DNA of 64,000 nt from contig OX597817.1 in the NCBI GenBank assembly GCA_951406725.2, positions 11,532,001-11,596,000 of the forward strand. The letters run 5' to 3'. The translations under genes and the position numbers were made by a program. The DNA comes from Octopus vulgaris. Its lineage: Eukaryota. Positions within the stretch are counted from its first letter, which is position 1. Every line of letters starts with the position of its first letter. Shown in pieces: positions 5,368 to 27,349 of this stretch. The notes under the pieces are model-generated. The model saw only the letters and a program-made list of their open reading frames with translations, did no database searches and was not told the DNA's origin.

Positions 5368-5420
5368 GTCTCTTTTCAGGACATCATCAGGTGGATTTCA
5401 GATCTTCTATTCTATTAGAC

Positions 5421-5473
<53 letters not shown>

Positions 5474-5656: not shown

Positions 5657-5985
5657 ATATGAAAGGATGAAAATAACGTGCGATAAAAGATCAAAATGTA
5701 CAATAGTATCTTGGAGAAAGTCGAAGCGAGGTATAATAAGCCCCTTGAGTTATTATAATCGTAACCGAATTCCATGCAAGAAATACTCTACTGCAAAAGG
5801 AGTTGTATAGACTAGACATACATAATTAGGTCCCATATTTCTTTCTTTATCTCTGTCTGTCTGTCTTTTTCCTTTTCTCTCTTATATATATATATAGCTA
5901 TAGCTATCAAATAATTCGCTGTAGTTGATGAAAGATATTGTATTAAAAATTTACTAAATATTTCACAACAATATTTCACAATATA

Positions 5986-6231
5986 GGCGCAGGAGTGGCC
6001 GTGTGGTAAGTAGCTTGCTAACCAACCACATTGTTCCGGGTTCAGTCCCACTGCGTGGCATCTTGGGCAAGTGTCTTCTGCTATAGCCCCGGGCCGACCA
6101 AAGCATAGAATAAGTACTGGGCTTACAAAGAATAAGTCCCGGGGTCGATTTGCTCGACTAAAGGCGGTGCTCCAGCATGGCCACAGTCAAATGACTGAAA
6201 CAAGTAAAAGAGTAAAAGAGAGTAAAAGAGT
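5986..6231 (+). mobile_element. SINE A, internally deleted
   Basis: Head to CCGACCAAAGC joined directly to ATAGAATAAGTACTGGG; the microsatellite-bearing middle is missing. Confidence 0.9.
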
Positions 6232-6607
6232 AATAACTTTCGAAAACCAGAATGATATAAACGTTACGAAAGGAAGTTCAAGTGTTCAGTCTTCTCATTT
6301 TCAGTATTTCAACCACACACACATACACACTCACACTCGCGCAAGCATGCGCGCACACACGCATATACACACCTGTATGCATGGAAGAATGTATGTAAGC
6401 TTGTATGTATTCTGAATAGAATACATCAGTGCATCAATAGCAATTAGATTATTTAATTTCCTAGCTTCTCTTATAGATATCCTTTTGAAGAAAGAATGAG
6501 ATAATGATATGATAAAAAAACCAACTATTTGTAACATAAGAATAATAGTATCATATATACATACATAAAATATATATATACATACATATATATATACATG
6601 CATATAC

Positions 6608-6780
6608 CAACCGATGCTGGTGTGTTTACGTCCCTGTCACTTAGCGGTTCGGCAAAAGAGACCGATAGAATAAGTACTGGGCTTACAAAGAATAAGTCCT
6701 GGGGTCGATTTGCTCGACTAAAGGCGGTGCTCCAGCATGGCCGCAGTCAAATGACTGAAACAAGTAAAAGAGAGAAAAAG
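6608..6780 (+). mobile_element. SINE A, 3' half
   Basis: CAACCGATGCTGGTGTGTTTACG...AATGACTGAAACAAGTAAAAGAG. Confidence 0.9.
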
Positions 6781-6840
6781 AGAGAAATACATACATACAT
6801 ACATATATATATATATATATGCTCATTCATACGTATGTTT

Positions 6841-6940
<100 letters not shown>

Positions 6941-6942
6941 CA

Positions 6943-6967
<25 letters not shown>

Positions 6968-6975
<8 letters not shown>

Positions 6976-7162
6976 CCTTGACTATCGCGTGTGTTACGGC
7001 CCCATCGGCGTTAGGCGAAAATCCGCGAAGTCGAAACTGTATTTTTTAAAAATTATTTTTGAGAATTTGTATATATAAATTTTATTATAAATGTAAAACA
7101 ACACCACGTAGGAATCGACGTAAGCTTAAATAATAGACCGCGATAGGTGAACGCGATACTGC
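6968..7162 (+). mobile_element. pogo/Tigger-like MITE relic
   Basis: Start TAATCCCTTGACTATCGCG and end CCGCGATAGGTGAACGCGATA match the reverse-oriented copy at 14659; Tigger-like terminus. Confidence 0.5.
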
Positions 7163-7809
7163 TAGTATTATTATATATGCAGAGAGAGAGAGAGGGGGTT
7201 GGAGAGAAATAGAGAAAGAGAGAGAGAGAGAAAGGGAGAGAGAGAAAGAAGGAGAGAGAATGGAAATCTGATCTTTTCTTAATTAATTGTATAAAATATA
7301 TATTAGTGACTTGATTGCCTGTGGATAACTCCAGTTTCATGGCTTGAAGCGCAACTTTACATAGGATAGACACCAGCTGCTGCCAACGATATTTCCACAT
7401 GACTTAACATCTTTTTCCATTACCAATATAAATTTACGTAATTTGTTTTACCCAGAGAAAAAATGTTAGCATCGTGTTGGACTCAGAATCCAAAGGAGCT
7501 CACGTGTCAAACATCAGGATAAAATCATAACATAGTACTCACTCACAAAACTTGGCAGTATAATCTTATACATAACACTATAATCTTAGGAGTATAATCA
7601 TATATATGTGAGCAATATTCAGTGAGAGTATTCAACGACTCAGCATTTAGTTGGTACGATGACTAAATCTATGCGAATTAAACAAGCAACGAAAGAGGGA
7701 TCGCAACTATACCACATAGATGCATGCAACATTTTCAACGAGTTACTTCAAAGGACATCAAAATGTATCGGTGGCTGTTCACATCGTCAGTCACTATTGA
7801 ACTGATTTT

Positions 7810-8233
7810 CTCTTTTATCTCTCTTTTACTTGTTTCAGTCAATTTGACTGCGGCCATGCTGGAGCACCGCCTTTAGTCGAGCAAATCGACCCCGGGACTT
7901 ATTCTTTGTAAGCCCAGTACTTATTCTATCGGTCTCTTTTGCCGAACCGCTAAGTGACGGGGACGTAAACACACCAGCATCGGTTGTCAAGCAATGCTAG
8001 GGGGACAAACACAGACACACAAACACACACACACATGCATATACATATATATATATATATATAAATATATACGACAGGCATCTTTCAGTTTCCATCTACC
8101 AAATCCACTCACAAGGCTTTGGTCGGCCCGGGGCTACAGCAGAAGACACTTGCTTAAGGTGCCACGCAGTGGGACTGAACCGGGAACCATGTGGTTGGTT
8201 AGCTAGCTACTTACCACACAGCCACTCCTGCGC
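7810..8233 (-). mobile_element. SINE A, full length
   Basis: Reverse complement of 961-1407 including the internal CA/TA microsatellite. Confidence 0.92.
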
Positions 8234-8656
8234 TACATTATATATAATTGTGTCACTTGTTGATACATAAAAGGATATTACATAAATTTACCAGGAACGA
8301 GGAAAGGAACAAACAGGTTATTTCACACATCAACGTGAAATGCCACCTGTGTCTCTGAAAGGGACCGAAAAATAGCTTCAGAGAACTCTAATGGTATCAT
8401 ATAAACCGGAACACTAAAATATATACAATGAGTTGTAGAGTAGATAGACGCATAGAAAACTAATATGTAAAACTTGAATTCATCTGAACATAGTTGAATT
8501 TATATAAACATGATGTCGGAATTCAAAATAACTCAGTATTTTGTCGGTGATATGATTTTATGAATGTTTGAAGTAAACGAACGGGAAGGAAGAAACTCAG
8601 ATATAGCGCAAACAGACAACTCCCGATACGTCATCCAGCAACCATCTATGATTTGG

Positions 8657-9167
8657 GATGCTGGTGTGTTAATGTCCCCGTAACTTAGCGATTAAGTAAA
8701 AGACCAATAGAATAAGTACTAGGCCTGCAAAGAGACAAAGAATAAGTCCGGGGATCGATTCTTCGACTAACACCCTCAGCCAGGTCAATTCTCATTGGTG
8801 TAGGCTATGCCTAAATTAATAGCACCACCTGATAGGATTAGCTAAATCCTTTCTAAATAAAGTTTTGTGGCATCGTGATCCATTCTAATATGTTTCTGGA
8901 GTTGTATTTTCGAAGGGAGGACTTGATTCATGTGTGTGTGTGTGTGTGTGTGTATTTGTGCTTTTACCTACCACTGCTCGGCAACCGATGCCTTTTTGCT
9001 TGAACTTAGCAGTTGCGGTTCGGCGTAGAATAAATGCCGTAGGATAAGTTTCGACAGAATACACACCAGATCCAAAAATAAAAGTACTGGGATCGATTGG
9101 TTCAGCTTAAACCTTTCAAGATTGTACCTTAGTCCAATGAATGATAGAAGTAAACGATAAAAAGATA
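8657..9167 (+). mobile_element. Two diverged SINE A 3' fragments (8657-8770, 8931-9167) with a minus-strand LINE 3'UTR scrap (about 8785-8860) between them
   Basis: GATGCTGGTGTGTTAATGTCCCCGTAACTTAGCG; ATAGCACCACCTGATA is the reverse complement of the LINE 3'UTR near 20487-20502. Confidence 0.6.
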
Positions 9168-9592
9168 AATACAGATGTCTTAGATGACATTTTACTCTGA
9201 GTCAAAATCCTTTCTAAATATTGTAAACCAACCAAAGTGAATATGAAAGATATTTGTAAGAAGGCCCTGATGGCCAAATTTAGCTGTTATTGCTAAATTT
9301 TATGTCCTTAGTTCCTAATTTTATAACATCCCGAAGACTGCTATGAATTTCCTAATCTTTTGATACAACCACACTTGGTGTGGACTCGAAGAATAGCAGG
9401 TGTGTGTGATTCAGACAAAGTGGCTGAATCTAGCGTGAAATTAAAAACAAATTCTCTCAGGAACACAAGTGGCCATTACCCTCGATGAGCGAATGCAGAC
9501 AGGATCTTATGACTGGTTAAATTCAAATTTTCGAAAAAATAAGAACACAATGCATGCATATGTATATGAGTGAGCTAGTGTGTACGTGTGTT

Positions 9593-9634
<42 letters not shown>

Positions 9635-9776
9635 TGCGTATGTGTATTGCTGTATGGAATATACATGATTAATGTATACATGTATACATTCATATTTTCT
9701 TTCATATATTTTTACATACATAAATGCATACATACGTTCACACACACACAAATATAATACATACGAATATTTTATA

Positions 9777-9831
<55 letters not shown>

Positions 9832-12140
9832 GTATATGTATATGTATGTATATATGTGTGTATGTATGTATATGTATATACGAAGGGAGGGAACGTAGCT
9901 AAGAGAGGGGAAAAGCAGAGAGATTTAGACAAAAGGTCTGGTATTGTTGTTCAAACGTTCCTTGAATACACAAATACATACATAAGCATATACACATATT
10001 TACATATATATTATTTAAATATATACACAAATACACACAGACGCACAGAGACATACACACACACGCGCGCATATACGTATACTGGCACATACATATACAC
10101 ATATACTTATATAAACTCATATATCTTTAAATGCAGTCGAACAAATGAACATAGACGAGACCAAAACCATATTACTAGGAGTATATTTCTAAGTCAATGG
10201 AAGTCACATATGCTTTAGCCATATATATTTCGCTGACAAACCAGATTATGACGTCATTGGTAAGCGCCAGTTCTATTTCACGCTTTGATAACAGATGATT
10301 TTCTTTGTGTTAAAGTACTATCATTATAGTGTTAGCCCACCAAGAATGCCTCCGCCCTCATTTCCCCACCAACCCCAATAACTGTTTATATGGCCAACTG
10401 GTTTTCACTCAACAGCAGTGTTTTGTATAGACAAGAGTTATGACATAGAGGACAAGAAAATATAAAGAAAACTACAATATAACTTTTATTGCTGTTATTG
10501 TTTCTGTTCCTTTTCTTTTCTTTCTGTGTTTGTATTTCTGTGGTTTATCTGTCCTACAAGATGTAACACACTCTGAAAGAGTTTGAAAATTATACGAGCT
10601 ACAGCTATTGATTAGCCAGTTAAAAAGAAAAACACGCTTTTCTCGACTGCGCCACGTTCCTCCCAAACTTGAGAATTCATATTTGTAACAGACAGTTGGT
10701 AACAGAATATAATTTAAAGTCAGTAAGAAAAGGGTATTCAATCTTTCATTTTAGAAACGGAAGCATTATTTGATAGATCCTTGTCAAGAAATTCATTGGC
10801 TAAAAATTGTGATTGATGGAAGTTATAGAATCGGATTAAATGCTTACTCAAATCTATTTTGGTTTTCCACAGTAAAATATTTAAATCCTACTGAAGTCAG
10901 TAGAGTGCTAAAAATAGACAGAACTAGACAGGTCTTCAGCATTAGTGCTAAGATGTATAATTTGTCAACTTTCAAACAGTAGGAGATATAAGTATAAATA
11001 CATACGAACACATATATACATATATATCTATATTACCTATCTTTATATTTATACACATAGCAACTATATGACACCCAGATGTAGTAATGGAGATTCATAT
11101 AGGCTTCATAGAAATATATTTACCTGGAGCACAAAAGATACACAGAAAATGTGCAAAATATGATAAGAAAATATATTAATTCATAACTCGACAGCTGTTT
11201 CAAGAAGCCTGGATTTACATGATAATCATAATAATCCTAAGTTACAAATGAAATCTGCAAATTGTCATGGAATGTAAACGATAACCAGTCACATGTAGAT
11301 ATAGTAAATCTGGCTTCCTTCATCAACGGAAAACTGGCGTTTGTGAAAGTTTTTTTCGTACATGGATATGAATAAATTACGCTTGTAGTGACAGAACAAC
11401 CCCCGGCATTAGAGTGCGTTCTTATTTCGTCAATACACTTGTGGTATGAAATACTATCAACAATGGGTGAAAAGTTAAAACAATTGCAATATTACTCCAT
11501 TATTTTATATATGGTAAACTAGAGTTCTATGTTGTAATTGCTGCGTAAACTATATTTGACAGACACACGTTAAGTTTAACCTTCCATGAGCAAATGTCAA
11601 ACAGCAAGGAAAACTGAAGCAACAGTACCACCACCACCACCTCTACCATCATCGTCATCTCTACTAGCATTAACAGCAACCATAGGCTATCCAAAATTCT
11701 TTCAATATAATAATTGATGTTCGAAAGAGAATCGGCAGCGGGATGAGATTCGATAACGCTTTCACGCAATCAAATATTCTGAGTTAAATCATTGGTCCAT
11801 CACCCAAGTGTATTCCTCTGTAGCTTTGCAGTGTATGTTAACGTAAATAAAGTAACAAGCTTTCTATATTACACTTAATGTGCTACAAATTTTTGCTGGT
11901 GAAAACTATTTCAGTCCTCGCTGTTCCACTCAGACGAAGCCTTCAGGTTATAGGGTGAAATACATGTGATCCTCAGACAACTGCTGACGATAACAGAAGG
12001 GTTTTAGGCATTACTATGGATTTAGAAAAGCTTACAGCTTACAAAACCTCTGCGTAGCTCATGCAGTTCACGCATGGGGCAAAGCATCTCATCCATATCC
12101 ATCCCTCTTTTTATCCATACATATACACATGTAGGGTTTA

Positions 12141-12458
12141 TCACGTGATCACGTGACCGATCCCGTGACCGACCAGACCATTAGATGTTGTTACACATCG
12201 CTGGTCACAATGCGTTCGCATTGTTTTAGCCTTCAAATGACGCCACCCCGCTGGCTAAGCGAGCAGGCCAACAGAAGAAAGAGTGGGAGAAAGTGTGGTG
12301 AAAGAGTACAGCAGGGATCACCACCCTCTGCCGGAGCCTCGTGGAGCTTCTTTAGGTGTTTTCGCTCAATAAACACACACAACGCCCGGTCTGGGAATCG
12401 AAACCGCGATCTGGCGACCGCGAGTCCGCTGCCCTGACCACTAGGCCATTGCGCCTCC
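12141..12458 (-). mobile_element. tRNA-derived SINE family C, full length with TSD
   Basis: Minus-strand head GGAGGCGCAATGGCCTAGTGG...GGTTTCGATTCCC, tail CACGTGATCACGTGA; target-site duplication GTAGGGTTTA(T) at 12131 and 12459. Confidence 0.92.
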
Positions 12459-13312
12459 GTAGGGTTTATACTTTTACATTAAGGTCAACGTAAAGAAGAA
12501 ACCAATCACATCTTTTATCTGCTTGCAATATAGCGTGTCTTTTAAGCATGTTCCGCTCTCAACAAACTGCAAGAGCCAATTTCCAAAATAAGAAGGAGTT
12601 ATTAATTAAAAATAACCCCTCACCATTAAGCGATTATGGGATTTATCATAATCTCGTAGTCGCAATATTTTTAGGGTTTATTTCATTATTTTTTTTTCAT
12701 TGAATAATAAACTGTAGAAGATTAGCAAAGTAAAAAAAAAAAAGGTTGTACATAAACAATGTCAATTTAAAACTAATACGGTAAAAGGAGCACAACTTAC
12801 GCTCCAGGCTTACGAAACAGCCGCTAATTATGCCGTGTTCCTACTGTGTTTATTTGCAAACCGTACAAAATATCAGTGTGAAATATATGTTAGTCAGGAC
12901 CAGGGCTGATATAAGTATAGGAACCTTTGACTACACGGTTAATTCCATGCTCTATAAATTCCTTAGTGTGAAAATCCCTGTAACGTATTCACAATGAATT
13001 TTATTAAAGGGCCGTAAATTTTACACAATGCCGTGAAAAAAATTATTGTGATTTACGAGAGTGTATTCCAAGACTTACATTTGATACTCATTGTGTGGTC
13101 CGTCAGAAATTATAAATCATTCTCCTACCACAGATACATTACACACTAAACATAAAAATATATACGATAGTTCTATTGTTTCTGATTAAAAAAAGAAAAC
13201 TATGATATGCACAGATGTAGACAAACTTCATTCAAATTTCGTCCTGGTTATCTTTGGTATGTTGCATATATACATATATACGTGTGAGTGTGTGTCTTTA
13301 TATGTATGTATG

Positions 13313-13408
<96 letters not shown>

Positions 13409-13661
13409 GCGACAAGCGAAGTATTTCTAGAACTGTCAACACGACTACCAAAAAGTTTTTCAGTAGATATGAGAAGAAAATAGAAATTCGAGCAATTGCA
13501 GTGTTTTAGTGGATAGGGGTAGATGATAGATGTATACATGCTGTCTGCACCATTGGCTTTTGTTCTTTAACAGCTGTTCCATATGCGAGGCACTTTAACA
13601 ACCAACAAATGAATACACATCTCATACCAACAGAGTCGCGCACATATGGTAATATCGTATA

Positions 13662-13706
<45 letters not shown>

Positions 13707-13814
13707 AAATTGTATGCTTTGTATATATACATATATACATTTACATGACATATATACATGTGCGTGTGTGTATGTATTTGTTTGTATCTGCTTGCATATA
13801 TATATGTATGTATG

Positions 13815-13942
<128 letters not shown>

Positions 13943-14189
13943 TATATAGTTATATGTATATGTACATATTATGTATGTATATATCGTTAGACCACATCTG
14001 ATAAGCAAATAGCTACAATTAAAGATGCTATTTAATCACTCCACGAAGTTAATAACATGATGCAAAGAAAAGTCTATGATAAAAAAAATAGGAATATAAT
14101 TAAAAACAAACTTCTGCAAGACCCACATCACACTAGAACATAATAATACAATATGTTGAGTAAGCAGCTAGTATATTCTAAATGAAACA

Positions 14190-14385
14190 GGGAGACGCTG
14201 TGCCGTGTAGGAAAAGCGGTCAGATCTACCTGAAATTATACCTTATAGTCTTAAGGAAAAATAATTTATGTAGCTCATGAGGTACGCTTTCTGATAAAGA
14301 AAAACGTGACGGTTATGACTAGAATGCCTTTCATCAGAATTCTACTCGATCAGAGCTGGGTTTCGACTAAACACAACAGCAACAA
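14190..14385 (+). mobile_element. Old SINE-like repeat with (CAA)n-like tail
   Basis: GACTAGAATGCCTTTCATCAG...CTCGATCAGAGCTG...CTAAACACAACAGCAACAA; similar degenerate copies near 48560-48690 (-), 50215-50440 and 59440-59540. Confidence 0.45.
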
Positions 14386-14658
14386 TAGAAATTATTGAGA
14401 AATGCGTAAATTTTTAGAAACACCTCAAATTCTAATGATGCTATCAAGATCAACCTTGGCTTTGTAAACTAAATGAAAAGTGTTTCTCTCGTGATAGCAG
14501 CGTATTTTTTCCAAACAAAGTTTATCGAAACTACATTATCGAATGTGTTTTAGGGTTTGATATCAAGAAGTTTGGATTGTTAATTCTTATTGTATCCCCC
14601 AACTCTTGTATAAATAACACGTTTGATCAAGATGGGTCTTTTGTTTTTAATCTATATA

Positions 14659-14850
14659 CAATAATCCCTCGCCATATCGCAGTTCACCTATTGCGTATTC
14701 AGTACATCGCGGATTTTTCTGGCTAAATTATGTAAATTTATATCGTGGACTCCTCAGTATATGGCGGGTTTCTGCTGCCGATAGGTATTTATATATTTTT
14801 AGATTTTGATTATTTCTGTAGGCGGTTTTCGAACATAACACTCGTGATTA
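14659..14850 (-). mobile_element. pogo/Tigger-like MITE relic
   Basis: TA|CAATAATCCCTCGCCATATCGCAGTTCACCTATTGCG terminus; related to 6968-7162. Confidence 0.55.
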
Positions 14851-15106
14851 ATCAATATATGAAAAATAGTGTGAGAATACTATTATTTAGATGTCTAGTT
14901 GTGCCACGTTTCGTTTGTCATACGTTAATTTCTAAGTGTTCTAGTTTCAGTCGTCAAACAATAGGGTGTTAGCTGTATCGTTTACTTCCTTTCGTGTTAT
15001 CTTTAATGTAGCCTTCTTTATTATTCAACTGGAAAGTTTTCTTTTCAAACTGTAAACGATTTAGTCCGTCTCAAAGCCAGTTTTCTCATAATCACACAAC
15101 CGCATA

Positions 15107-15502
15107 TCTTTATATATAAAAGTGAGGTTGTGTGCTGTCTGTCTCCTACGATTTAGATTCCTAACTACTCCCACATTTTGCGGTGCAGTTTAACAAAAAC
15201 CGGGTATCTTATAGTCGTGATTCATATCGAGCGCTTCTGGGTATTAACGCGCGTCTACGATGAGTCTACGATTTAAAAAAAAATTTACCATCAATTTTTC
15301 CCATTTTTAATGCATTTTTGGCATATATAAGGGAAGTAACTCTCTAAAAATTTATTATTAAATCTCAGAACGTAAAAAGCTACAGTAACACCCCCTCCCT
15401 TTGTGGTTAGCCATATTGAGATGGCTATTATACTTTACATCTCTAAAAATGCTTATATAGTTATTTCCGTTACAAACCCGAGCAACGCTGGGCGACTGCT
15501 AG
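15107..15502 (+). mobile_element. Non-autonomous Helitron
   Basis: A|TC 5' end, subterminal hairpin CCCGAGCAACGCTGGG, CTAG|T 3' end, no TSD. Confidence 0.9.
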
Positions 15503-15845
15503 TAAATATATAAGGAGCATCAATAATGTGGTGAAATTAATCGACTTCCTTATTTAAATGAAAACAAGTCGCACATGCAGGTTCTTGAAGTTTATTTTCC
15601 CAGCTTTACAGTTCTTGCGAAACTACTTGACTCTGAAATATTTCCAGTTATGAGTTCTGGGTTCTTGTTCAAAAGCCCTTCATAAATTTTATCGCAGTTT
15701 GCTTCTATCTTTTAACCTGATTTAGTTGTTGCGCCACAGTTTATTAATCAATACATTCCTTACCGTACATTAAATTGCTCTGGTGCAATCGCAAAATATA
15801 CGTGCTGATTCTTCTCCTCCCACCTCTCTCTCTCTGTCTGTCTAA

Positions 15846-15889
15846 CTATCTATCTATCTATCTATTTATTTATCTATCTATCTATCTCC

Positions 15890-15935
<46 letters not shown>

Positions 15936-15937
15936 CC

Positions 15938-15985
<48 letters not shown>

Positions 15986-16001
15986 TTATCTATCTATCTC
16001 C

Positions 16002-16063
<62 letters not shown>
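15846..16063. repeat. (ATCT)n tetranucleotide microsatellite
   Basis: Direct reading. Confidence 0.95.
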
Positions 16064-16064
<1 letters not shown>

Positions 16065-16307
16065 AATATTATAATTATATCCATTTGAGACGTCATTATA
16101 ATTCGGCAATTCTGTGCATTTTTCTTCACTCTGAGACTTATTGTAGAATAATCTATTGTTATTACTAACGCTAACTGAATATGATTGTTGCAGGAATGTT
16201 TTAAAGGATCGCTTACCTTGATCGTTTGTATTTCATTAATTATAATTTGATAAGTCAAAACTTAATGAAAATATAAAAAAATTTTCTTCATAATTTCTTT
16301 TACTTAC

Positions 16308-16377
16308 CTCACAGATATATATTTAGTATTCATGGTCAATCATTTCACATCGTTCACCGATATAACCAGCCGGGCAA
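16308..16377 (-). CDS. Candidate exon encoding the C-terminal half of an EGF-like domain (EGFR-ligand type), coding part 16377-16323
   Basis: Minus strand CTAAT...TTGCAG|T TGC CCG GCT GGT TAT ATC GGT GAA CGA TGT GAA ATG ATT GAC CAT GAA TAC TAA ... GAG|GTAAGT gives xCPAGYIGERCEMIDHEY*; canonical acceptor, possible branch point and a consensus donor. Confidence 0.7.
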
Positions 16378-16443
16378 CTGCAATTGACAAATTAGATTTT
16401 AAATTAACAAGCGGAAATGTAGCAGGCGCAAACATATTAAATA

Positions 16444-16661
16444 TTGGTTTCAAATTTTGGCACACAAGACCAGCAATTTCGGGTGAGGGGTATAAGTCGA
16501 TTACATCGATCTCAGTGTCCAACTGGTACTATTTTATCGGGCCCGAAAAGATGGAAGACAAAGATCGACTCCGTCGGCATTTGAACTCAAAACGTGAAGT
16601 CGGAAGAAATACTGCTAGGCACTTAGTCCAGCGTTGGCAACGATTCTGCCAGCTTGCCGCT
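16444..16661 (-). mobile_element. SINE B
   Basis: Reverse complement of the family B head, ending in the CCAAAATTTGAAACCAA-type tail. Confidence 0.8.
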
Positions 16662-16753
16662 TTATGGAAACGATGAATATTAAAACATAGTTAAATATTA
16701 TTCATTGTTTAACTATGTATCGGACATCCATACAAATGACGCAAAGTGTGTGA

Positions 16754-16905
16754 CCTTGACATTTATGATGGCAAGTTGAAATTAGCGTAGTCCTTCACCT
16801 TTCTGTTAGCAAGTTAAAATTACCGTTGTCCTTGACCTTTCTGTTGGCAAGTTAACATTACCGTTGCCCTTGACCTTTCTGCTGGCAAGTTAAAATTAGC
16901 GTAGA
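16754..16905. repeat. 38-bp minisatellite, 4 units
   Basis: Consensus CCTTGACCTTTCTGTTGGCAAGTTAAAATTACCGTTGT repeated four times. Confidence 0.9.
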
Positions 16906-18070
16906 GCTATGTACTAGAACATTCGGTTGGGATCCCTTCTTCCTCATATTTACAATAGCAAAAAACAAAAAAGAGGAAAATAAAAAAGGTCAGAAAAGTT
17001 CGGTATATTATTAATTGTGTATTTCATGAAATACTTTTTGCTAATTGAGACATTAATGAAATATATATAACGAAGGACATAATACAAAGCTCAAATTACC
17101 TCTGTAATAAAAGGATAATATAAAATTTCTGTAACTAAATAGATTTGTTATTGTATCTGTTCTTTTAGTAATATACAAATATGCATATATGAAAGTCTAA
17201 GTTCATCATCAGTTGTCGATTGGAAATCATTAAAATTTCGACACCTATAACAATATTGTTTGTTACAGTGGTGCCGACAGCATATTGGGCTGTGAGAATA
17301 TGTACAGGTGAACATGAAAATTGTACGAAAAGTATATAACGTTGTTGGCAGAATAACTGCAAAACGAAACGAAAAGAGAATATAAGTAACCTTCCGGCTG
17401 AAACGATGAATTTAGGAGAAGTTGCTCGTTTCGTAAAGAACGGGAAAATACAAATCGATACGAACAAGGAAATGTATTGTTTTTTTTGTTTGTTTTTTTT
17501 TTAAAATCAAACGATAAATTTAAAACTAGTTGTATGAACACCGGAAACAGTAAAAACCGAATCAAGCACGCAGAAAAAAATATATATAGTCATTCGAGAA
17601 AAAGTTCAAATCTCATACAGATTTGCAAGTAACGCATGAAATAACCATTAGACGTTGCAGACTTGTCGACTTATTCACTAAGCAACTCTTATCAAAGTAA
17701 AACTATCATACATGATATTCCAGGAGTACTCATTATCTTTATTTAAGATACTAGGGTATGAATTTGCAGAGACTTCATGGTAGAGGTCGTTGACTTAAGT
17801 TATCGGGTTCATGTTCACGAAATTTTATTTTCCAATTCAACTATATTCATAATAACTATAAAATATTTTTGAGAAACTCAAAGTTTTCTACCGAATTGTT
17901 ACTTAATAGTTGACGATATAGTATTAAAATGAAGTTCAATAATTTCTCTCGATACATTGATAAATAGACCCTACTTTCTGTTCTTTAATGCTAACTTATA
18001 ACAATGGAGATATGGGCAATAGAAATATAGTTCAAAAAGCGAATAAAATAGAAAGGCAGGTGTGAGAATA

Positions 18071-18372
18071 TCTTTATATATAAAAGTGAGGTTGTGTGCT
18101 GTCTGTCTCCTTCGATTTAGATTCCTAACTACTCCCACATTTTGCGGTGCAGTTTAACCAAAACCGGGTATCTTATAGTTGTGATTCATATCGAGCCCTT
18201 CTGGGTATTAGTGTGCGTCTACGATGAGTCTACGATTTAAAAAAAAAATTACCATAATTTTTTTTCCATTTTTAATGCATTTTTTGTTATTATATAAGGG
18301 AAGTAACTCTCTAAAAATGCTTATATAGTTATTTCCCCTACAAACCCGAGCAACGCCGGGCGATACTGCTAG
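18071..18372 (+). mobile_element. Non-autonomous Helitron
   Basis: A|TCTTTATATATAAAAGTGAGG...CCCGAGCAACGCCGGGCGATACTGCTAG|T. Confidence 0.92.
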
Positions 18373-18677
18373 TCATACATAAATATGCCGAAGAGGAAGA
18401 ATATTTACAAAAGGGAAGTTATGTGCATGAACGTATGTAAAACTAAAGAGAATGATGTCACAAGATGAAAAGAAAGTAAGAGAACAAATCCGGAAGCTGT
18501 CGCTCTAACCTAGAGTTTTATATCTTGGGCAGATACGAGACTGAACAAACGACAGAATTGATTTACAAATTATATTTAGCAAATCGAATCGTAGCTGAAG
18601 GTCGTTTTTCATAATAAATAAGTCGGAAAATTAAAGTTAAACATTGATGTAGTTATATAAGTATATGATAAGTATAT

Positions 18678-19162
18678 CTTTTATCTTTTACTTGTTTCAG
18701 TCATTAGGCTGTGGCCATACTGGGGCACCGCCTTAAAGAGTTTAGCCGAATAAATCGAATCCAGTACTTCATTTCTAAAGCCTCGTACTTATTCTCTTGG
18801 TCTCTTTCGCCGAACCGCTAAGTTACGGGTACGTAAACAAATCTACACTTGATGGTGGGGGACAAACACAAACGCACACACACAGATATATACACACGCA
18901 CACGCATATACATACACACGCACACACATTCTCTCTCTCTCTCACACACACACACATTCTCTCTCTCTCTCTCTCACACACATACACACACAACCACACA
19001 CATATACACACACAACAAGTTTCTTTCAGTTTCTGTTTCACAAATCCACTCATAAGGCTTTGCTCGACCCGGCACAGAGTAGAAAACACTTGCTCGCAGG
19101 GTTACGGAGAGTGACTGAACTTGAAAACATATGTGGGGAGCAAGCATCTTACCAAACAGCAA
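18678..19162 (-). mobile_element. Older SINE A-related copy
   Basis: TTTTACTTGTTTCAGTCATT...CCGAACCGCTAAGTTACGGG...TTCTTTCAGTTTC...CAAATCCACTCA with internal CA/CT repeats. Confidence 0.8.
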
Positions 19163-19497
19163 AAGCGTTAAGTGCTTTTAGTGCTTATATCAGGCATAAA
19201 AAAAGAAGTATACATTAAAGCAACATAAAGCTAAGGAAATAGATCTCAATTAGTATAAAACATTAAAGCAAATACTAGTAATTGCAAGTATTCACATATC
19301 TGTAGCAATTAAATCTCTATGGCAGTCAGATATCTTTAACAGTCAGCTGAACAGTATATAATATACGCAGTGTGAACGAAAGGAAATAATATTCTTACAT
19401 ATCAAGAGGGCAGACACGAGAAAATAATAGAAAAATTAACAAAAGTATGATTAATAGTTATTGAAGATAAAGTAAGGGGAAAAAACGACAGAACTTG

Positions 19498-19640
19498 CAC
19501 GGGTGGCTCTGGTAAGGAGTTTGTTTGCCTCCTAAATCCACAGTTCCAGGTTCAGTCCCGAAAGTGTCTTCTACTATAACCTCGGATCGATCAAAACCTT
19601 ATGAGTGGATTTGCTTGACGGAAACTGAAGGAAGCTCAAC
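19498..19640 (+). mobile_element. Degenerate SINE A 5' half
   Basis: GTTCCAGGTTCAGTCCC..AGTGTCTTCTACTATA..TGAGTGGATTTG..GACGGAAACTGAAGGAAGC. Confidence 0.65.
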
Positions 19641-20182
19641 CATTTATATATATATTTATATTTGTAGTGCAATATATATGAATTTATAGAATCTTGTGGC
19701 TATCACAGAAGGCTTCTCTAGCGGACCGGAATTTCATACCACAGTAATCCAACACAGAGGAGTTCAAAACAGAGTTCTGTACTGCTGAAAACCAGGTGAC
19801 CCAACTAATGAAAATATTTCATGAGGAGTATATCAACCATAAAATGTCAAGAAGTTACAGAGGTGAATGCATTTATGTAACTTTTTGTTATTCTTACGGT
19901 TACAGCCGTTTCGTAGCCTTCATCATACAATAATAATGATAATTCTTGTTTATAATAAATTATTTTACATGTCTGCGCCAAAATACATACTACGCATTGC
20001 ACAATACAATCGTGCATTTTCAAATCAATGCAAATAAATAAGGCTTGCGCACCAGATCACAAGAACATCATGGTTACACCAATGCTTGAAGCATTGATAG
20101 AAAGAATTGACATATACGTTAACCTTAATGAGGAATTTAACACGATCGAAAAGAGTATCTTCAAAAGAATTTTATATTTTGC

Positions 20183-20556
20183 TTCAAGGTTCATCCAAGG
20201 CTGGGACCAGGGGCCATACGTCTCCTGTCCAATTCAAGATCACAATATATAGGTACACTGCGACACAGTTTCTTTTCCTCAACAGACCCTGCCCTGCTTA
20301 ACATTGTCCCAAAACTGATCAAAGAGGAAAAGATCCCATCACCTTTAAACGGAGTCTGGACAAATTTCTTCAAGGAATACCAGGTAAGCCACCTATACCT
20401 GGATACAACTCACTCAACAAAAGCTCATTACTTGAATGAACCATAATATCACAAAAAAATTGACTTAAAATGTATTTAGATAATCTTATCAGGTGGTGCT
20501 ATTAAGTTAGACATGGCCTGGACCAATCTTTGGTTGAAACATATCTAAGTTTATAA
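20183..20556 (+). mobile_element. CR1-like LINE 3' end (same family as 54265-55710)
   Basis: Begins TTCAAGGTTCATCCAAGGCTGGGA as at 55675; encodes a degenerate FKRSLDKFLQGIPGKP-type C-terminus, then a 3'UTR. Confidence 0.7.
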
Positions 20557-20566
20557 ACGCTACACA

Positions 20567-20614
<48 letters not shown>

Positions 20615-20636
20615 TATATATACACTATATATATAT

Positions 20637-20998
20637 GGAAGCACTCCGTCGGTTACGACGATGAGGGTTCCGGTTGATCCGAATCAACGGAACAGCCTGC
20701 TCGTGAAATTAACGTGTAAGTGGCTGAGAACTCCACAGACACGTGTACCCTTAACGTAGTACTCGGGGATATTCAGCGTGACACAGAGAGTGACAAGGCC
20801 GGTCCTTTGAAGTACAGGTACAACAGAAACAGGAAGTAAGAGTGAGAGAAAGTTGTGGTGAAAGAGTACAGCAGGGATCACCACCATCCCTGCCGGAGCC
20901 TCGTGGAGCTGTTTTCGCTCAATAAACACTCACAACGCCCGGTCTGGGAATCGAAACCGCGATCCTATGACCGCGAGTCCGCTGCCCTAACCACTGGG
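20637..20998 (-). mobile_element. Chimeric SINE: family C head plus family D tail
   Basis: About 20840-20998 matches the SINE C head and body; 20641-20825 matches the 3' half of SINE D at about 37830-38012. Confidence 0.88.
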
Positions 20999-21470
20999 TC
21001 ACTGCATATATGTATACATATATGTATATATGTATGTATATATATATGGAATCGAGAAGATAAAACTATGTAAGAGCTCGTTGTGTGGATTTTATTTGTA
21101 CTTCAAAAGATACAACTTGTCAAACAGTGTGTCACGCTGATTCTGCCAAAGAAATACAAAACGTGTAATGTGTCTTTAAAATGCACACCCATCTGCAAAA
21201 TAATTCAATGAACCAAGGATTCAAATGATGGAATGTACAAACATTCATCCATGCATGTATATATTATGCTTGTCTGTATGTATGTATACAAGTCTATTTC
21301 TGCGCCGTCCCATTCACATTAGTAATCCACCTCTAAGCAAAATAGCATTTTATGTTGAATGGTACCTAAAAATTTCATTATTTACAGAAATGATCATAAA
21401 GCAGTAGATTGACCAGTATTTCGTTCCACAGAATTCGTTAATAAATAAAAAAAAACAATGCAAAGGTAAT

Positions 21471-21532
<62 letters not shown>

Positions 21533-21677
21533 AGCCCTTTCTATCTGCCTCTTTTTTATTTCTCCTGCGGTATAGAACGCTGCTTCCATCTCCAAAAAAG
21601 CGGTGCAAGACCCAGCGTATCGACAAAAAACTTTTCAGTTTCTGACAACATCAGCGTGTCAGTATATATATATATAT

Positions 21678-22135
21678 ATAAAGGAATACCAAAAATGGGA
21701 CAAGTTCACAAAACATCAAGACAGACGATAAAAAAAAACAAGGACGGGTCACTCGGAGTTTTCTTTCTTCAGTCAAGTTCTAGATTATCTTTGCAATTTC
21801 GGCTGCTTATACTCGAGATTGCTCAAATCTGGCCAACCCCAAGGAAAATCTAAACGAAGAGCAATAGGTTCCTTGGAAGAAAGCAACCAATGTATACGAA
21901 AAAAAGGATAGAAAAAACGGATAAATGGTACACAAATCCAAATGCAAATAAGGATATTAACAACAGGTGTCTTTCGACTAAGAACAAATTAAATTAAGCT
22001 GGCGTGTGTGGAAGTGAAGCCTTACGGCAGGGACATAAGAAATGACAAGCATAGGGAGGGATATAGATGTTGCACGGATGGTAGTCGAACCACGAAATAA
22101 AAGTTAGGCTTGGCCGAACACCGATCACGTGGAGA
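21678..22135. repeat. Unclassified dispersed repeat, partial second copy at about 23015-23085
   Basis: AAAGGAATACCAAAAA..GGACAAG...CAAAACATC.AG shared between 21680 and 23019; abuts (TA)n. Confidence 0.45.
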
Positions 22136-22372
22136 GAGAAGAGAGAGGTAGAGGCAGAGGGATAGAAGAATTAGGGAGGGACGAGAAAAAAGAAAAGGGA
22201 CAGAGTGAAGTGAAAGAGGAGGGAAGGTGAGAATGAAGAGAAAGCCTGGAAATGTGAGAGAGGGGAGACGAAAGAAAAAAGAATGGAGAAAACGAAGTAA
22301 GTGTGAAGGGGCTGATAGAAAGAAGGAAAGAATGAAAGAATAATTGAGTCGTACAAAATTTATATATATATA

Positions 22373-22754
22373 TCTATATATATAAAACTGTAGTTGTGTG
22401 AGTGTCTGTCCCCTTCGATTTAGATTCCTAACTACTCCCACATTTTGCGGTGCAGTTTAACCAAAACGGGGTATCTTATAGTCGTGATTCATATCGAGCC
22501 CTTCTGGGTATTAGCGCGCGTCTACGATGAGTCTACAATTTTAAAAATAATTCACCATCATCTTTTTCCATTTTTATGCATATTTTTTTAAAGGGAAGTA
22601 ACTCTCTAAAAATGTCTACGATGAGTCAACGATTAAAAAAAAATTTACCATCATATTTTTTCCATTTTTTTGCTATTTTTTGGCTATAACTCTCTAAAAA
22701 TGCTGTATAGTTATTTCTCTTACAAACCCGAGCAACGCCGGGCGACACTGCTAG
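22373..22754 (+). mobile_element. Non-autonomous Helitron with two internal subunits
   Basis: A|TC start, duplicated TCTACGATGAGTC...AACTCTCTAAAAATG unit, hairpin, CTAG|T. Confidence 0.92.
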
Positions 22755-22809
22755 TATATATATATATATGTACTTACATATAAGAGACCAAAGTGTACGT
22801 ACGCCGTTA

Positions 22810-23007
22810 TCTCTCTCTATATAAACGGCAGTTTGTCTGTGCGTTTTCTGTGTGTCTGTTTTCTCGTACCCTCACTCTGACCACGGCTTTCAACCGATTC
22901 TGATGAAACTTGACAACATGGGGTCCTATTTTTTTGCTATAACTCTCTAAAAATGCTTTATAGTTATTTCCCTTACAAACCTGAGCAACGCCGGGCGATA
23001 CTGCTAG
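22810..23007 (+). mobile_element. Short Helitron with a different 5' end and the same 3' end
   Basis: A|TCTCTCTCTATATAAACGGCAG...CAACCGATTCTGATGAAACTTG, then the shared AACTCTCTAAAAATGC...GCAACGCCGGGCGATACTGCTAG|T. Confidence 0.85.
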
Positions 23008-23374
23008 TATTTATATAAAAAGGAATACCAAAAACAGGACAAGAACGCAAAACATCCAGCCAGTTAGAGGATACAAAAAAGTGACATATGTATATATAAG
23101 TGCTACGGCTTTCTGCAATCGTTTGTGTAATCGGCAGCGAGAAACTCACCGTGATGTTTATAAAAGTTTAAGTGTCTAATATAATATACATATGAATGGA
23201 ATCATAATTTTTTGTCTTTGTCTAAACGAGCGTTAATCACTCTTTATGCATCATGTGTGTGCATATGCTTTCTGAGCAGTGTTAGGTGCTTACACCTAAA
23301 AGTAATCTGCAATCTATTTTACAGTCTGCTATATTCATATATTACAAATTCCAAGAATTATATAAAAATGTGTG

Positions 23375-23408
<34 letters not shown>

Positions 23409-23434
23409 TGTATGTATGTATGTATGTATGTATG

Positions 23435-23508
<74 letters not shown>

Positions 23509-24810
23509 GACACACATGCACACACACAACACATACAATTCTGTTCATATGGACCTTAGGAGCATAATAGCGGAAGTATGTGTATGTTTTGGTGCGATCC
23601 GGCCTGTAACCGAGTAACTTACATTTCAAACACCGCCTCTTAACAAAACACACACGTTACAAGTTGTGATACAGCTTCTCTATATTACATATAAGTGTAT
23701 TAAAATAAACCTCTTGCCATATGTCAGCTATTTTTATGCCTGTATGAGACATATACACGAACAATCCTACACATTTACATGCACACAAACATTCAAAGAC
23801 ATATACACACACACCAACACACATTCATATGTGTATAAACCACACTTGTACACTCTGATGCCGACGCACTCATACATACACGTGCTCACGCATGCATCAG
23901 ATATAGACTTTCTTTTACATTCACAAACGCATTTAGCATATATCCGATCAAGTTATGTAACTTCTAATTATATATATTTTGTGCTTCTAATAATATATTT
24001 TGAGACAGATTTTCCATGCTTACCTAGTTTCATTTGAATCCACGTGCTCAACTACTTTAAAACCTATATATTTAGTTGATCTATTTTACATTCTACTTCC
24101 CAGAGAGATTTTCACGTGAAATAATTTTCTGTAGGTTTAGTAACCAACGTGCCACTTACAATGCCACTGCGTAATCCTTTTCTGAACATCCGACGCTGAT
24201 AGAAGTAAACTATTCTCAAACTTGAGACCTCTTCCAAATGCTTGTCCCAAGGTGGATTCTACTAAAGACACCCAAGGATCAGATGATGGTATTAATTTAG
24301 GCGATGGATTAAATTGATGATTTCAGAAGCTATTGGTTAATATTTCAATTGGTATGCCTTTCGAAAGGTTGCTATATTTTATGCAACGAAATACTAGCGT
24401 CTAGTATGGTCCGACAACTACTTGTGAATGAATTTGATTACAGTGATTGAAGCATGCGCAGAGCTATTTTCACTTTCCTAATAAAATAGTGTTCCTCCTG
24501 GATCGGCCAACATTAGTTAGGACAACCAGTAACTGGACGTTTATATTTTATATTAGAATTTAAACAAAACATTAATGGGATCAATTTCACCGATATCAGA
24601 AGGACTGGAAGGGTTATCAGTAATATCCCTTACTCTGCATTCAACTAGTTAAGGTCATTCCATACGTTAACAGAGAAATTTATAGAGTTTATAGTTTATC
24701 AATCTCCAAGAATATCAATAAATATCAGGCAAATAAGTTTAAGAAGAAATTCAGCTATTCAAAGTCTGAAAGGAAAGAATTACAGTAAATAGTAACCCGA
24801 AAATAGTTAG

Positions 24811-25465
24811 CGTCTTCTTCCAACTTCGTCAACGAAGAATTAGATTAAATATTGTATATAGACAATGTTTCAAGCTACGTATTGAGTTGTCTTAATTACC
24901 AAACAGAGGGTGCAACTATGTTTCGACAACTTCTTTATCATTGAAAACAGTATCAAAGCATAGACATGTGGTGTTTCCAGAGAATACATGAAATATAATA
25001 AAAATATGAATTCAAATGAAAGGAGGTGTAACAGAAAAGCTATATTGCATAATTCGATGAATTTAAAAACAAAGAATGATTCATTTTGCAAAGACTTACT
25101 ACCTTGGTCATAGGGGTTGGAAAATCTTTAATACAGATTTTTATCCAGTTTCGAGGACAGGTTTTTCTCATTCGGAACTGACATGTAGACAAGTAAGAGC
25201 AACAGGAACAATAAATTCAGTTGAAGGCAGGGTAGAATTGTGGGCATTTATTGTGTTTTTGAATTTATTGTTCCTGTTGCTCTTACTTGTATCCTCTGGA
25301 AACACCACATGTCTATGCTTTGATACTGTTTCCAATGATAAAGACGTTGTCGAAACATAGTTGCGCCGTCTGTTTGGTAATTAAGACAACTCAATACGTA
25401 ATTTGAAACATTGTCTATATACAATATTTAATCTAATTCTTCGTTGACGAAGTTGGAAGAAGATG
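24811..25465. repeat. Long inverted repeat (178-bp arms) with a nested 30-bp inverted repeat
   Basis: 24811-24988 is the reverse complement of 25288-25465 with few mismatches; 25190-25219 pairs perfectly with 25260-25289. Confidence 0.92.
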
Positions 25466-25744
25466 TATACGCAGAACATAGAAGAACTTAATTATGCAAC
25501 AAAATGTATTTACACCGATGATATGATTCAGATATGGCTACTGATGATACAGGAGACCCGAGGACCACGGTGGATGATATAAAAACTGATACAGAAAGTG
25601 CACTCGAACAGACGGAAATATCACACACCGAATACCCATCGCCAGCGTAGCAAAGAAACATAAATATATAAAGGTGTATGCGTGCTCAGCTTGTGTGTCT
25701 ATACAGAAACGAGGCACGCATACACGCATATGTTTGCATATATG

Positions 25745-25799
<55 letters not shown>

Positions 25800-25930
25800 A
25801 CACACATATATATATATATATGCGCTAAGTGTATATGAACATATCTATATACATGGGTGTATATATATACATATCTATACATATGTATATATGTATATTA
25901 TTGCATACAAACCCACACACAGACACAGAC

Positions 25931-25991
<61 letters not shown>

Positions 25992-26361
25992 CACATACAT
26001 AACAAGAAAAGCAAAACAAAATATATAGAATATAACTTAGAACAGCATATGTCACTCTGTGTACGAGCATAAATGTGTGGTGTTCTCGGGAGTGTGTCTG
26101 TGAGTTTGAATACACATGTATGTGTGTGTTCGTAGGAGTGAGCGGTTGTGTTAAATCGAAACATGAGCAGAAAAGCACAAAGAAAAACATAAACATACAA
26201 ACAGCAGACAGAATTAATGAAACCAGGCGGGAATATATTACACATATACATAGAGTGTTTGTGGATGCTTATATACATATACATACATGCACATACACAC
26301 ACACACATATATATATATGTATACTATATACACACACACATATATATATGTATACATATAC

Positions 26362-26413
<52 letters not shown>

Positions 26414-26418
26414 GTGTA

Positions 26419-26452
<34 letters not shown>

Positions 26453-26483
26453 CATACATATATATGTATGTATACATATATAC

Positions 26484-26537
<54 letters not shown>

Positions 26538-26619
26538 ATACATACATAAGCATGTATGTATACATATATACATATATATATATGTGTATATATATGTATA
26601 TATATAATTATAAATGATG

Positions 26620-26666
<47 letters not shown>

Positions 26667-27349
26667 ATGTATGTATATATATTATTTTCGATACATGTAA
26701 TATTGATATATGTATATATTTTCGGTAAAAGAAGCTGTCCAATACCAAGGATAAAATAATAAATATTACACAGAACAAAAACTTAAATCACTAGTTTGCA
26801 ATAATAATGGCGTCAGTAGCTTGGTGTAAGAATGATAGTACGTTAACAAACCAATACCTTCAGCCATTTTGTTTCCTAAACCTAATGTTTTCAGCAAGTA
26901 TTTGAGATTCTTATATGTTTAATTGAAATTCATCATTCTTGGCCACAATGGAATTATTTTCGAGATGAAAACTACGTTGAGTAATTGCAGTAGAATATGT
27001 AAGTGACTAACTGGTAATGTCGTCAACACAGAAGATATATAATAATCATAATTGTAAGAATTAAATATGTGGAACTAGGCCACACATTAGTTGATGAAAT
27101 TCAATCGACCTTGGCATCTTGAAATAAAATCAGTAGGACAAATAACTAAATACTGTAAGTTTTTGTTTTCTTCAGCGACGAATCTTGACAACAACATCAA
27201 TGAAAATAACAACAATAACGATGAAGATATTGATGATAATGATTATGATAATGAAGACGATGATGATGATGGCGGTGGTGGTGGTGTTAGTGGTGATGGT
27301 GGGTGGTAGTGATGCTAATGCTGCTGCTGATAATGATGATGACGATGAT

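What the first reader, a model, noticed from the sequence alone, without database searches (positions are those of the whole stretch)
16308..16377. Hidden minus-strand exon for an EGFR-ligand-like EGF domain that stops right after the motif
Seen: a 70-bp exon, absent from the ORF track, bounded by CTAAT..TTGCAG and AG|GTAAGT and encoding xCPAGYIGERCEMIDHEY*. Established: ErbB/EGFR ligands (EGF, TGF-alpha, neuregulins) have an intron between the 4th and 5th EGF cysteines and a G-x-R-C motif, and EGF and TGF-alpha have Asp four residues after the last Cys (CQYRDL, CEHADL). All three features match. Unusual: TAA comes 8 codons after the last Cys with no transmembrane segment, yet the exon runs 15 more nt to an in-frame phase-0 donor. 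Inference: a secreted, membrane-anchor-less ligand (as described for Lymnaea L-EGF), a recent nonsense allele or pseudogene, or, speculatively, a recoded stop. I could not find the Cys1-Cys4 exon in the window.
Basis: partly seen in the sequence, partly recalled or inferred. Interest (0 to 1): 0.75.

Follow-up and report, generated by a model that had tools for sequence, protein, structure and literature searches.

The report
Anchorless octopus EGF ligand, giant precursor
This short exon is a real, spliced piece of an octopus gene and carries that gene's normal stop codon; the gene likely makes a secreted growth factor for EGF receptors, predicted to be cut from a very long floppy precursor instead of being shed from a membrane anchor.

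Summary
The 70-nt exon is real and spliced. Five RNA-type contigs (three coded organisms, five studies) match it from donor to acceptor, TAA included. Their loose ends map uniquely to the Cys1-Cys4 exon 135.7 kb upstream (phase-2 intron) and to a 3'UTR exon 23.6 kb downstream. The exon is already in the Octopus vulgaris model CAI9720644.1, labelled 'pro-neuregulin-4, membrane-bound', although that protein has no transmembrane segment. The stop is the normal end. A diverged orthologue (57% identical over the C-terminal 68 aa) also ends 12 residues after Cys6 with no anchor. Read-through would add 33 non-hydrophobic residues, an open run expected by chance 8-16% of the time. The TAA lies 15 nt before the junction, so it should escape NMD. 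The unannotated part is exon 1 (4.26 kb): a signal-like N-terminus, about 1,290 low-complexity residues, one furin site and Cys1-4. The orthologue has the same layout. The reference carries one unresolved frame break there. Verdict: a soluble EGF-type ErbB ligand, a known kind, with an unusually large precursor. Receptor binding and processing are untested.

The parts
16308..16377 (-). Exon 2 (70 nt): completes the codon after Cys4 (phase 2), encodes Cys5-Cys6 of the EGF module, holds the stop and 15 nt of 3'UTR
   Evidence: RNA-type contigs cover exactly this span in 5 of 5 runs laid
16326..16377 (-). Coding part: 1 nt + CPAGYIGERCEMIDHEY, the C-terminus of annotated protein CAI9720644.1 (P0001)
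16323..16325 (-). TAA, the normal stop codon, 15 nt before the exon junction
   Evidence: present in RNA-type contigs; the orthologue ends 5 residues later, also without TM
16308..16322 (-). First 15 nt of the 3'UTR
   Evidence: run X20 has one change here (16314) and none listed in the coding part
16378..16395 (-). Branch-point-like CTAAT and acceptor TTGCAG
   Evidence: junction used in RNA-type contigs
16302..16307 (-). Donor GTAAGT of the 3'UTR intron
   Evidence: contigs leave the window at 16308
16378..64000 (-). In-window part of the 135,748-nt Cys4/Cys5 intron. It leads to exon 1 outside the window: G000 C4:11688380 (likely ATG) to 11684126 (donor TGC AA|GTAAGT), 4,255 nt, with signal-like N-terminus, low-complexity pro-region, RHKR site and Cys1-Cys4; one frame break between 11687769 and 11687493
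1..16307 (-). In-window part of the 23,600-nt 3'UTR intron. It leads to the next exon outside the window, starting at G000 C4:11524707 after a pyrimidine-rich acceptor; at least 503 nt of it are in RNA-type contigs

Best explanation
The exon is the spliced second exon and normal coding end of a single-copy octopus gene that likely encodes a secreted EGF-receptor (ErbB) ligand, predicted to be released by furin from a roughly 1,435-residue precursor that has no C-terminal membrane anchor. Shown: three exons joined across 135.7-kb and 23.6-kb introns, one EGF module with ErbB-ligand spacing and the Cys4/Cys5 intron, the stop in transcripts, no TM segment after the EGF here or in the orthologue, and one R-X-K/R-R site 117 residues before the end. 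Inferred: the N-terminal hydrophobic stretch is a cleaved signal peptide; the Ser/Gln/Asn/Thr-rich pro-region is disordered and glycosylated; furin cuts at RHKR|SFL; the 117-aa product binds one of the three EGFR-like receptors in the genome; the mRNA escapes NMD; the frame break in exon 1 is an assembly error or a repeat-length allele.
For: Splicing and stop. EGF module: Cys spacing 7/5/10/1/8; Pfam EGF 29.5 bits against a cut-off of 21.5 for the 44-aa module. In the PDB search 7 of the best 8 rows are EGF or EGF/TGF-alpha chimeras and the other is a multi-repeat Notch fragment. Family criteria from PMC1618406 and PMC11686035 (passages). Orthologue P0007 (946 aa, unnamed source) has the same N-terminus (39% over 92 aa, E 3e-9), the same KR|SFL site, 57% identity over the last 68 aa and ends 12 aa after Cys6. 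Its only match in this genome is this locus. Unspliced forms P0002, P0013 and P0014 run from Met to Cys4-Arg and stop, as expected for one giant exon and the same intron. The only strong hydrophobic 19-mer is N-terminal in both species (KD 2.33 and 2.31), with (-3,-1) sites near residues 30-32. Three EGFR-like domain-I exons lie in the genome, and egfr is expressed in O. vulgaris optic lobe (PMC9712504, passages). Soluble EGF-type ligands are known in spiralians (PMC4914847; PMC4210270).
Against: The reference exon 1 has a frame break: read as it stands, the signal-bearing frame stops after 295 aa. RNA-type contigs reach only 143-975 nt into exon 1, so the join between signal peptide and EGF is not shown for octopus. 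The annotated model skips the signal peptide and calls a 714-nt in-frame intron. The residue five after Cys6 is His in both species, where EGF and TGF-alpha have a Leu important for human EGFR binding (recalled). One of the two criteria in PMC1618406, closeness to a TM domain, is not met. The 'RNA' label of the runs is the tool's guess, although splicing at both ends argues for it. Only one diverged orthologue group was found, of unknown species.
Confidence: 0.77

Rival explanations
1. The N-terminal hydrophobic stretch is an uncleaved signal-anchor. The precursor would be a type II membrane protein with the EGF at its outer end, released by furin, like type III neuregulin-1 beta3/SMDF (recalled). 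It would be anchored, but at the other end.
For: The hydrophobic stretch is about 20 residues long (KD19 2.3) and conserved in sequence with the orthologue, including residues upstream of the octopus Met.
Against: Short, positively charged n-region and (-3,-1) small-residue sites right after the h-region in both species (hand heuristic, no SignalP available).
Confidence: 0.12
2. The gene, or this allele, is broken. The frame break in exon 1 is real, so no secreted EGF is made from it in this animal.
For: ATG-to-donor length is 4,255 nt (remainder 1, where phase 2 needs remainder 2); the signal-bearing frame ends after 295 aa. No reads were laid on the break.
Against: The downstream frame stays open for 1,214 codons. 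The break lies in or beside a 3-nt-unit repeat tract. Exon 2 shows no listed coding change in any of 7 runs, while X20 has 11 other letters over 145 nt, mostly unlisted and probably in the flanking introns. The orthologue's exon is uninterrupted. One GT-AG pair (1,736 nt) could also bridge the frames, but the 1,552 nt of it that lie in the EGF-bearing frame have no stop (16 and 19 in the other frames; 0 of 2,000 resamples).
Confidence: 0.05
3. It is an EGF-module protein that is not an ErbB ligand, for example a secreted matrix or mucin-like protein whose single EGF has another partner.
For: About 90% of the chain is low-complexity and Ser/Thr-rich with many N-x-S/T sites. PMC1618406 notes that mucins also carry EGF modules with the Cys4/Cys5 intron. 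His at Cys6+5.
Against: Conservation is concentrated in the N-terminus, the furin site and the 70 residues ending in the EGF. Single EGF, G-x-R-C, and best structural-sequence neighbours among ErbB ligands.
Confidence: 0.04
4. The TAA is read through or recoded, or is a recent nonsense change in a once membrane-anchored ligand.
For: The frame stays open for 33 codons after TAA across the next junction. The one change seen after the stop (X20, 16314) is silent in that frame.
Against: The extension has no hydrophobic segment (max KD19 0.06) and ends in two TGA codons. Chance of 33 open codons is 0.08-0.16. The orthologue stops 5 residues later. There is no usable donor between Cys6 and TAA, and no second Cys5-Cys6 exon in C4:11512001-11785000. 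UAA followed by A is a tight stop (recalled).
Confidence: 0.02

Closest known systems
Soluble EGF-type ligands of spiralians (planarian Smed-egf-6 and -7; Lymnaea L-EGF)
   Same: [quoted passage not shown]
   Different: Here the EGF sits at the end of a roughly 1,435-aa (orthologue 946-aa) low-complexity precursor with a furin site. Orthology to L-EGF or the planarian genes was not tested; their sequences were not at hand.
Drosophila Vein
   Same: Secreted EGFR ligand with the Cys4/Cys5 splice site (PMC1618406 passages).
   Different: Vein is NRG-type with an Ig domain. No Ig domain here: no Pfam Ig hit in P0001, P0007 or the 295-aa N-terminal frame, and the 1,214-aa frame has no Cys before the EGF.
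Vertebrate EGF, TGF-alpha, betacellulin, epigen, neuregulin-4
   Same: Cys spacing, Arg before Cys6, Asp at Cys6+4, Cys4/Cys5 intron; best PDB sequence matches.
   Different: These are type I membrane precursors shed by proteases. This gene has no C-terminal TM, so the database label 'pro-neuregulin-4, membrane-bound isoform' does not fit. His instead of Leu at Cys6+5 (Leu recalled for EGF and TGF-alpha).
Neuregulin-1 beta3 isoforms (GGF2, SMDF) - recalled, not checked in a paper (one search found none)
   Same: Stop shortly after the EGF module; SMDF has an N-terminal hydrophobic segment.
   Different: Those are splice isoforms of a gene that also makes TM forms. No alternative TM-bearing route was found here.

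Membership tests
ErbB/EGFR ligand (EGF-type) | Six-Cys module with spacing CX7-CX4/5-CX10-13-CX-CX8-C (spacing recalled) | tested here: met
   7/5/10/1/8 in octopus and orthologue; Pfam EGF over cut-off for the 44-aa module
ErbB/EGFR ligand (EGF-type) | Intron between Cys4 and Cys5 | tested here: met
   TGC AA|GTAAGT ... TTGCAG|T TGC, 135,748 nt; criterion from PMC1618406 and PMC11686035
ErbB/EGFR ligand (EGF-type) | Conserved Arg before Cys6 | tested here: met
   GERC; orthologue GQRC
ErbB/EGFR ligand (EGF-type) | Only one EGF motif; zero to two TM segments, soluble forms allowed (PMC4914847) | tested here: met
   Single module; no other Cys in the 1,214-aa frame; criterion
ErbB/EGFR ligand (strict Stein-Staros rule) | EGF module close to a transmembrane domain | tested here: not met
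   No TM after the EGF in either species, nor in a read-through frame; the same paper lists secreted Vein as a ligand
ErbB/EGFR ligand (EGF-type) | Binds and activates an ErbB receptor | not testable with these tools
   Needs a binding or phosphorylation assay; three candidate receptors exist in the genome
Soluble EGF-type ligand | Cleaved signal peptide in frame with the EGF | tested here: inconclusive
   Signal-like N-terminus conserved and in frame in the orthologue; frame break in the octopus reference
Neuregulin (NRG-type) | Ig I-set domain before the EGF | tested here: not met
   No Ig hit in the proteins scanned; no Cys pair in the pro-region
Neuregulin (NRG-type) / 'membrane-bound' label | TM segment and cytoplasmic tail | tested here: not met
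   Max KD19 of P0001 is 0.67; protein ends 7 aa after Cys6
Programmed stop-codon read-through | Conserved coding extension after the stop | tested here: not met
   Orthologue terminates within 5 residues; 33-codon frame is at chance level
Pseudogene / nonsense allele at the TAA | Stop absent in relatives, or coding decay | tested here: not met
   TAA in RNA-type contigs of three coded organisms and in X19; no coding change listed in 7 runs

The most novel reading that the evidence does not exclude
A distinct architecture of EGFR ligand in octopus and at least one diverged lineage: a single giant exon encodes a signal peptide, 700-1,300 disordered residues and a furin site, so release is set by proprotein convertase rather than by ADAM or rhomboid shedding. 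The huge pro-region would hold, store or slow the ligand in the matrix, and the three octopus EGFRs would read it as a diffusible signal, possibly in the nervous system.
Probability: 0.45. Interest if true: 0.5.

Novelty: new member of a known kind. Interest (0 to 1): 0.32.

Why it matters
It gives a concrete candidate ligand for the octopus EGFRs, one of which marks an optic-lobe neuron class (PMC9712504), and a short peptide that can be made and tested. It corrects a database entry that is labelled membrane-bound, lacks the signal peptide and misses about two thirds of the precursor. The anchorless state itself is not new for spiralians; the giant single-exon, furin-site precursor is the unusual part. 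The more surprising readings (recoded stop, fresh nonsense allele) are unlikely.

Tried and rejected
Homologue search with the 17-aa exon peptide was too short to run. Both flanking exons were sought in the window and are absent. A search for shorter homologues found no candidate. A profile search of 129-2,000-aa proteins gave 3 hits among 36 candidates, P0001 and two orthologue clusters; named cephalopod orthologues were not retrieved, which is weak evidence given the word-based search. Of 5 hits, three (P0003-P0005) are multi-EGF proteins and were set aside. The four other genome hits to the exon peptide are tandem EGF repeats without the Cys4/Cys5 intron. The weak hit on C3 lacks a Cys by eye and was dropped. 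AlphaFold2 on a two-sequence alignment gave mean pLDDT 48.7, so no fold search was run. Complex prediction of the EGF with one 120-aa EGFR domain-I fragment returned 'no answer' (0.15, mark 0.34) and is not used either way. ESM Atlas feature hits were under 0.9, leads only. No listed holder was on record as RNA; the RNA label is a guess. Rfam: no match in the window. Earlier findings: nothing in three look-ups. Paper searches with no result. One search listed 20 of 28 papers, none about an octopus EGF ligand by title or abstract start. One search was seen as a listing only. A whole-protein genome search got no answer from the machine and was replaced by local tblastn. The frame break could not be tested because both read-laying runs had been used.

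Full report
Observation. The exon is as described: minus strand, 16377-16308, 70 nt, acceptor CTAAT...TTGCAG, donor GTAAGT, reading 1 nt + CPAGYIGERCEMIDHEY, TAA at 16325-16323, then 15 nt. It is the only C..G[YFW].G..C match in the window's six frames. Among 12 open AG-N-Cys-x8-Cys sites on the minus strand of 174 kb it is the only one with G-x-R-C; 0 of 5 on the plus strand have it. The DNA is single-copy in the 2.8-Gb genome G000, where the window is C4:11532001-11596000.

Splicing. Fourteen runs guessed to be RNA held 0.14 of the sampled words, about what a 70-nt exon gives. I laid 5 of these 14 (X7, X13 organism B; X9, X1 organism A; X11 organism C; five studies) and two further runs of unrecorded kind (X19, X20). 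In all 5 RNA-type runs one contig covers exactly 16308-16382 with a single other letter. The loose ends of X1 and X13 are identical and each maps once in the genome with 0 mismatches: downstream at C4:11524678-11524707 and upstream at C4:11684131-11684160. The upstream exon ends TGC AA|GTAAGT, which differs from the intron end TGCAG by one letter and accounts for the mismatch, so the exon, TAA included, is unchanged in these contigs. The introns are 135,748 and 23,600 nt. X19 (organism E) runs unspliced over 16230-16365 with 2 changes, both intronic. X20 (organism F) has 11 other letters over 145 nt, of which only one is listed (16314, after the stop); a change at the TAA would lie further from the piece's end than the listed one, so TAA is probably intact there too (inference).

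Identity. The upstream exon supplies Cys1-Cys4 and completes a module with spacing 7/5/10/1/8. The gene is annotated: CAI9720644.1, 'pro-neuregulin-4, membrane-bound isoform', Octopus vulgaris, 499 aa, ending at this exon's stop. The 44-aa module scores 29.5 bits on Pfam EGF (cut-off 21.5; the whole 499-aa protein scores 20.6, just under). Seven of its best 8 PDB rows are EGF or EGF/TGF-alpha chimeras, followed by neuregulin-1. The Cys4/Cys5 intron is the published mark of ErbB ligands (PMC1618406 and PMC11686035, passages seen). The second mark in PMC1618406, closeness to a TM domain, is not met. Asp at Cys6+4 is confirmed against the EGF/TGF-alpha chimera. The next residue is His, where EGF and TGF-alpha have Leu (recalled).

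The stop. A diverged orthologue group from unnamed assemblies (P0002, P0006-P0010, P0013, P0014; 93-96% identical among the three compared) settles this. Its 3 spliced members that reach the C-terminus end 12 residues after Cys6 with no TM segment. Its only match in this genome is this locus. After the octopus TAA the frame stays open for 33 codons, with max KD19 0.06; such a run arises in 8-16% of resamples. No usable donor lies between Cys6 and TAA, and no second Cys5-Cys6 exon was found by motif in C4:11512001-11785000. The other genome hits to the peptide are tandem EGF repeats. The stop is 15 nt from the next junction, inside the 50-55-nt window that NMD ignores at a last junction (PMC1854916, abstract seen; mammalian rule). 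That the downstream exon is the last one is assumed: contigs run up to 503 nt into it before breaking near repeats.

The precursor. The annotation starts at an internal Met and misses the 5' part. The EGF-bearing frame is open for 1,214 codons, and an overlapping frame of 295 codons begins at ATG C4:11688380 with a hydrophobic stretch (KD19 2.33). This N-terminus aligns with the orthologue's (39% over 92 aa, E 3e-9), with (-3,-1) cleavage-type sites at about residues 30-32 in both (hand heuristic). Three unspliced orthologue ORFs run from Met to Cys4-Arg and stop, as one giant exon ending at the same intron would. So octopus exon 1 is probably one 4.26-kb exon with a single frame break between 11687769 and 11687493, in or beside an AAC/CAA tract. 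The precursor would be about 1,435 aa. The pro-region is 78% polar or charged (Ser 18%, Gln 11%, Asn 10%, Thr 9%). Its only R-X-K/R-R site is RHKR|SFL, matched by RKKR|SFL in the orthologue (which has one more such site); the predicted mature products are 117 and 186 aa. The break is untested: contigs reach only 143-975 nt into exon 1 and no read-laying run was left. A 1,736-nt GT-AG intron could bridge the frames, but the 1,552 nt of it in the EGF-bearing frame are stop-free (16 and 19 stops in the other frames; 0 of 2,000 first-order resamples, which do not preserve repeats).

Mechanism. Shown: gene structure, splicing, stop, no C-terminal anchor, conserved furin motif. Inferred: signal-peptide entry to the secretory path, convertase cleavage, release of a soluble EGF peptide, and binding to an EGFR. 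The genome holds three EGFR-like domain-I exons on C10, and egfr marks an optic-lobe cell type in O. vulgaris (PMC9712504, passages). Rivals: type II anchoring by the N-terminal segment (0.12), a broken allele at the exon-1 break (0.05), a non-ligand EGF protein (0.04), read-through or recent nonsense (0.02).

Comparison and novelty. It works like the soluble EGF-type ligands described for spiralians (PMC4914847, passages and section 6 seen; its supplementary architecture figure was not seen and may hold similar long forms) and Lymnaea L-EGF (PMC4210270, passages). It is not a neuregulin by domain content. Searches turned up no paper on this octopus gene; subscription journals are not covered. 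Verdict: a real, annotated but mislabelled exon of an anchorless EGF-type ligand gene, a new member of a known kind whose giant precursor is the point of interest. Interest 0.32.

Noticed in passing
G000 C4:11687769-11687493 (L004:2494-2770): Single frame break in the giant first exon, in or beside an AAC/CAA repeat tract; it probably explains why the annotated protein lacks the signal peptide.
   Followed up: partly
G000 C4:11685813-11685100 (L004/L003): The annotated model skips a 714-nt in-frame, stop-free 'intron' with a purine-rich acceptor. The 5' end of the X1 contig maps to about 11685100, which may be chance (repeat edge, other species) or a real branch such as an exitron.
   Followed up: partly
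G000 C10:39220377-39220652, 39935039-39935314, 67579618-67579899 (L033, L034, L032): Three EGFR-like domain-I exons, two of them 0.7 Mb apart and 76% identical: an EGFR expansion in this genome.
   Followed up: partly
L004:3379-3411 (minus): Nine residues upstream of the octopus ATG still align with the orthologue's first residues (LRQNVLAFNM against MRQNVLEFIM), with CTA where the orthologue has Met; a lost upstream start or a non-AUG start is possible.
   Followed up: no
window 16308-16320 (minus): In another frame the exon end reads Tyr-Leu-TGA just before the donor, lining up with the orthologue's terminal Ile-Leu-stop; the ancestral stop may have been at the exon end and moved by indels in the AT tract. 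Hint only, no orthologue DNA seen.
   Followed up: no
window 54297-55543 (plus); similar-looking pieces at 36868-37347 and 63041-63532 (minus): Decayed LINE-like fragments in the large intron; only 54613-54969 gave a Pfam hit (RVT_1, E 2.4e-6, under the cut-off, 1 of 8 pieces scanned).
   Followed up: partly
window 16426-16690: A high-copy dispersed repeat, abundant in RNA-type contigs, begins about 50 nt upstream of the acceptor.
   Followed up: no
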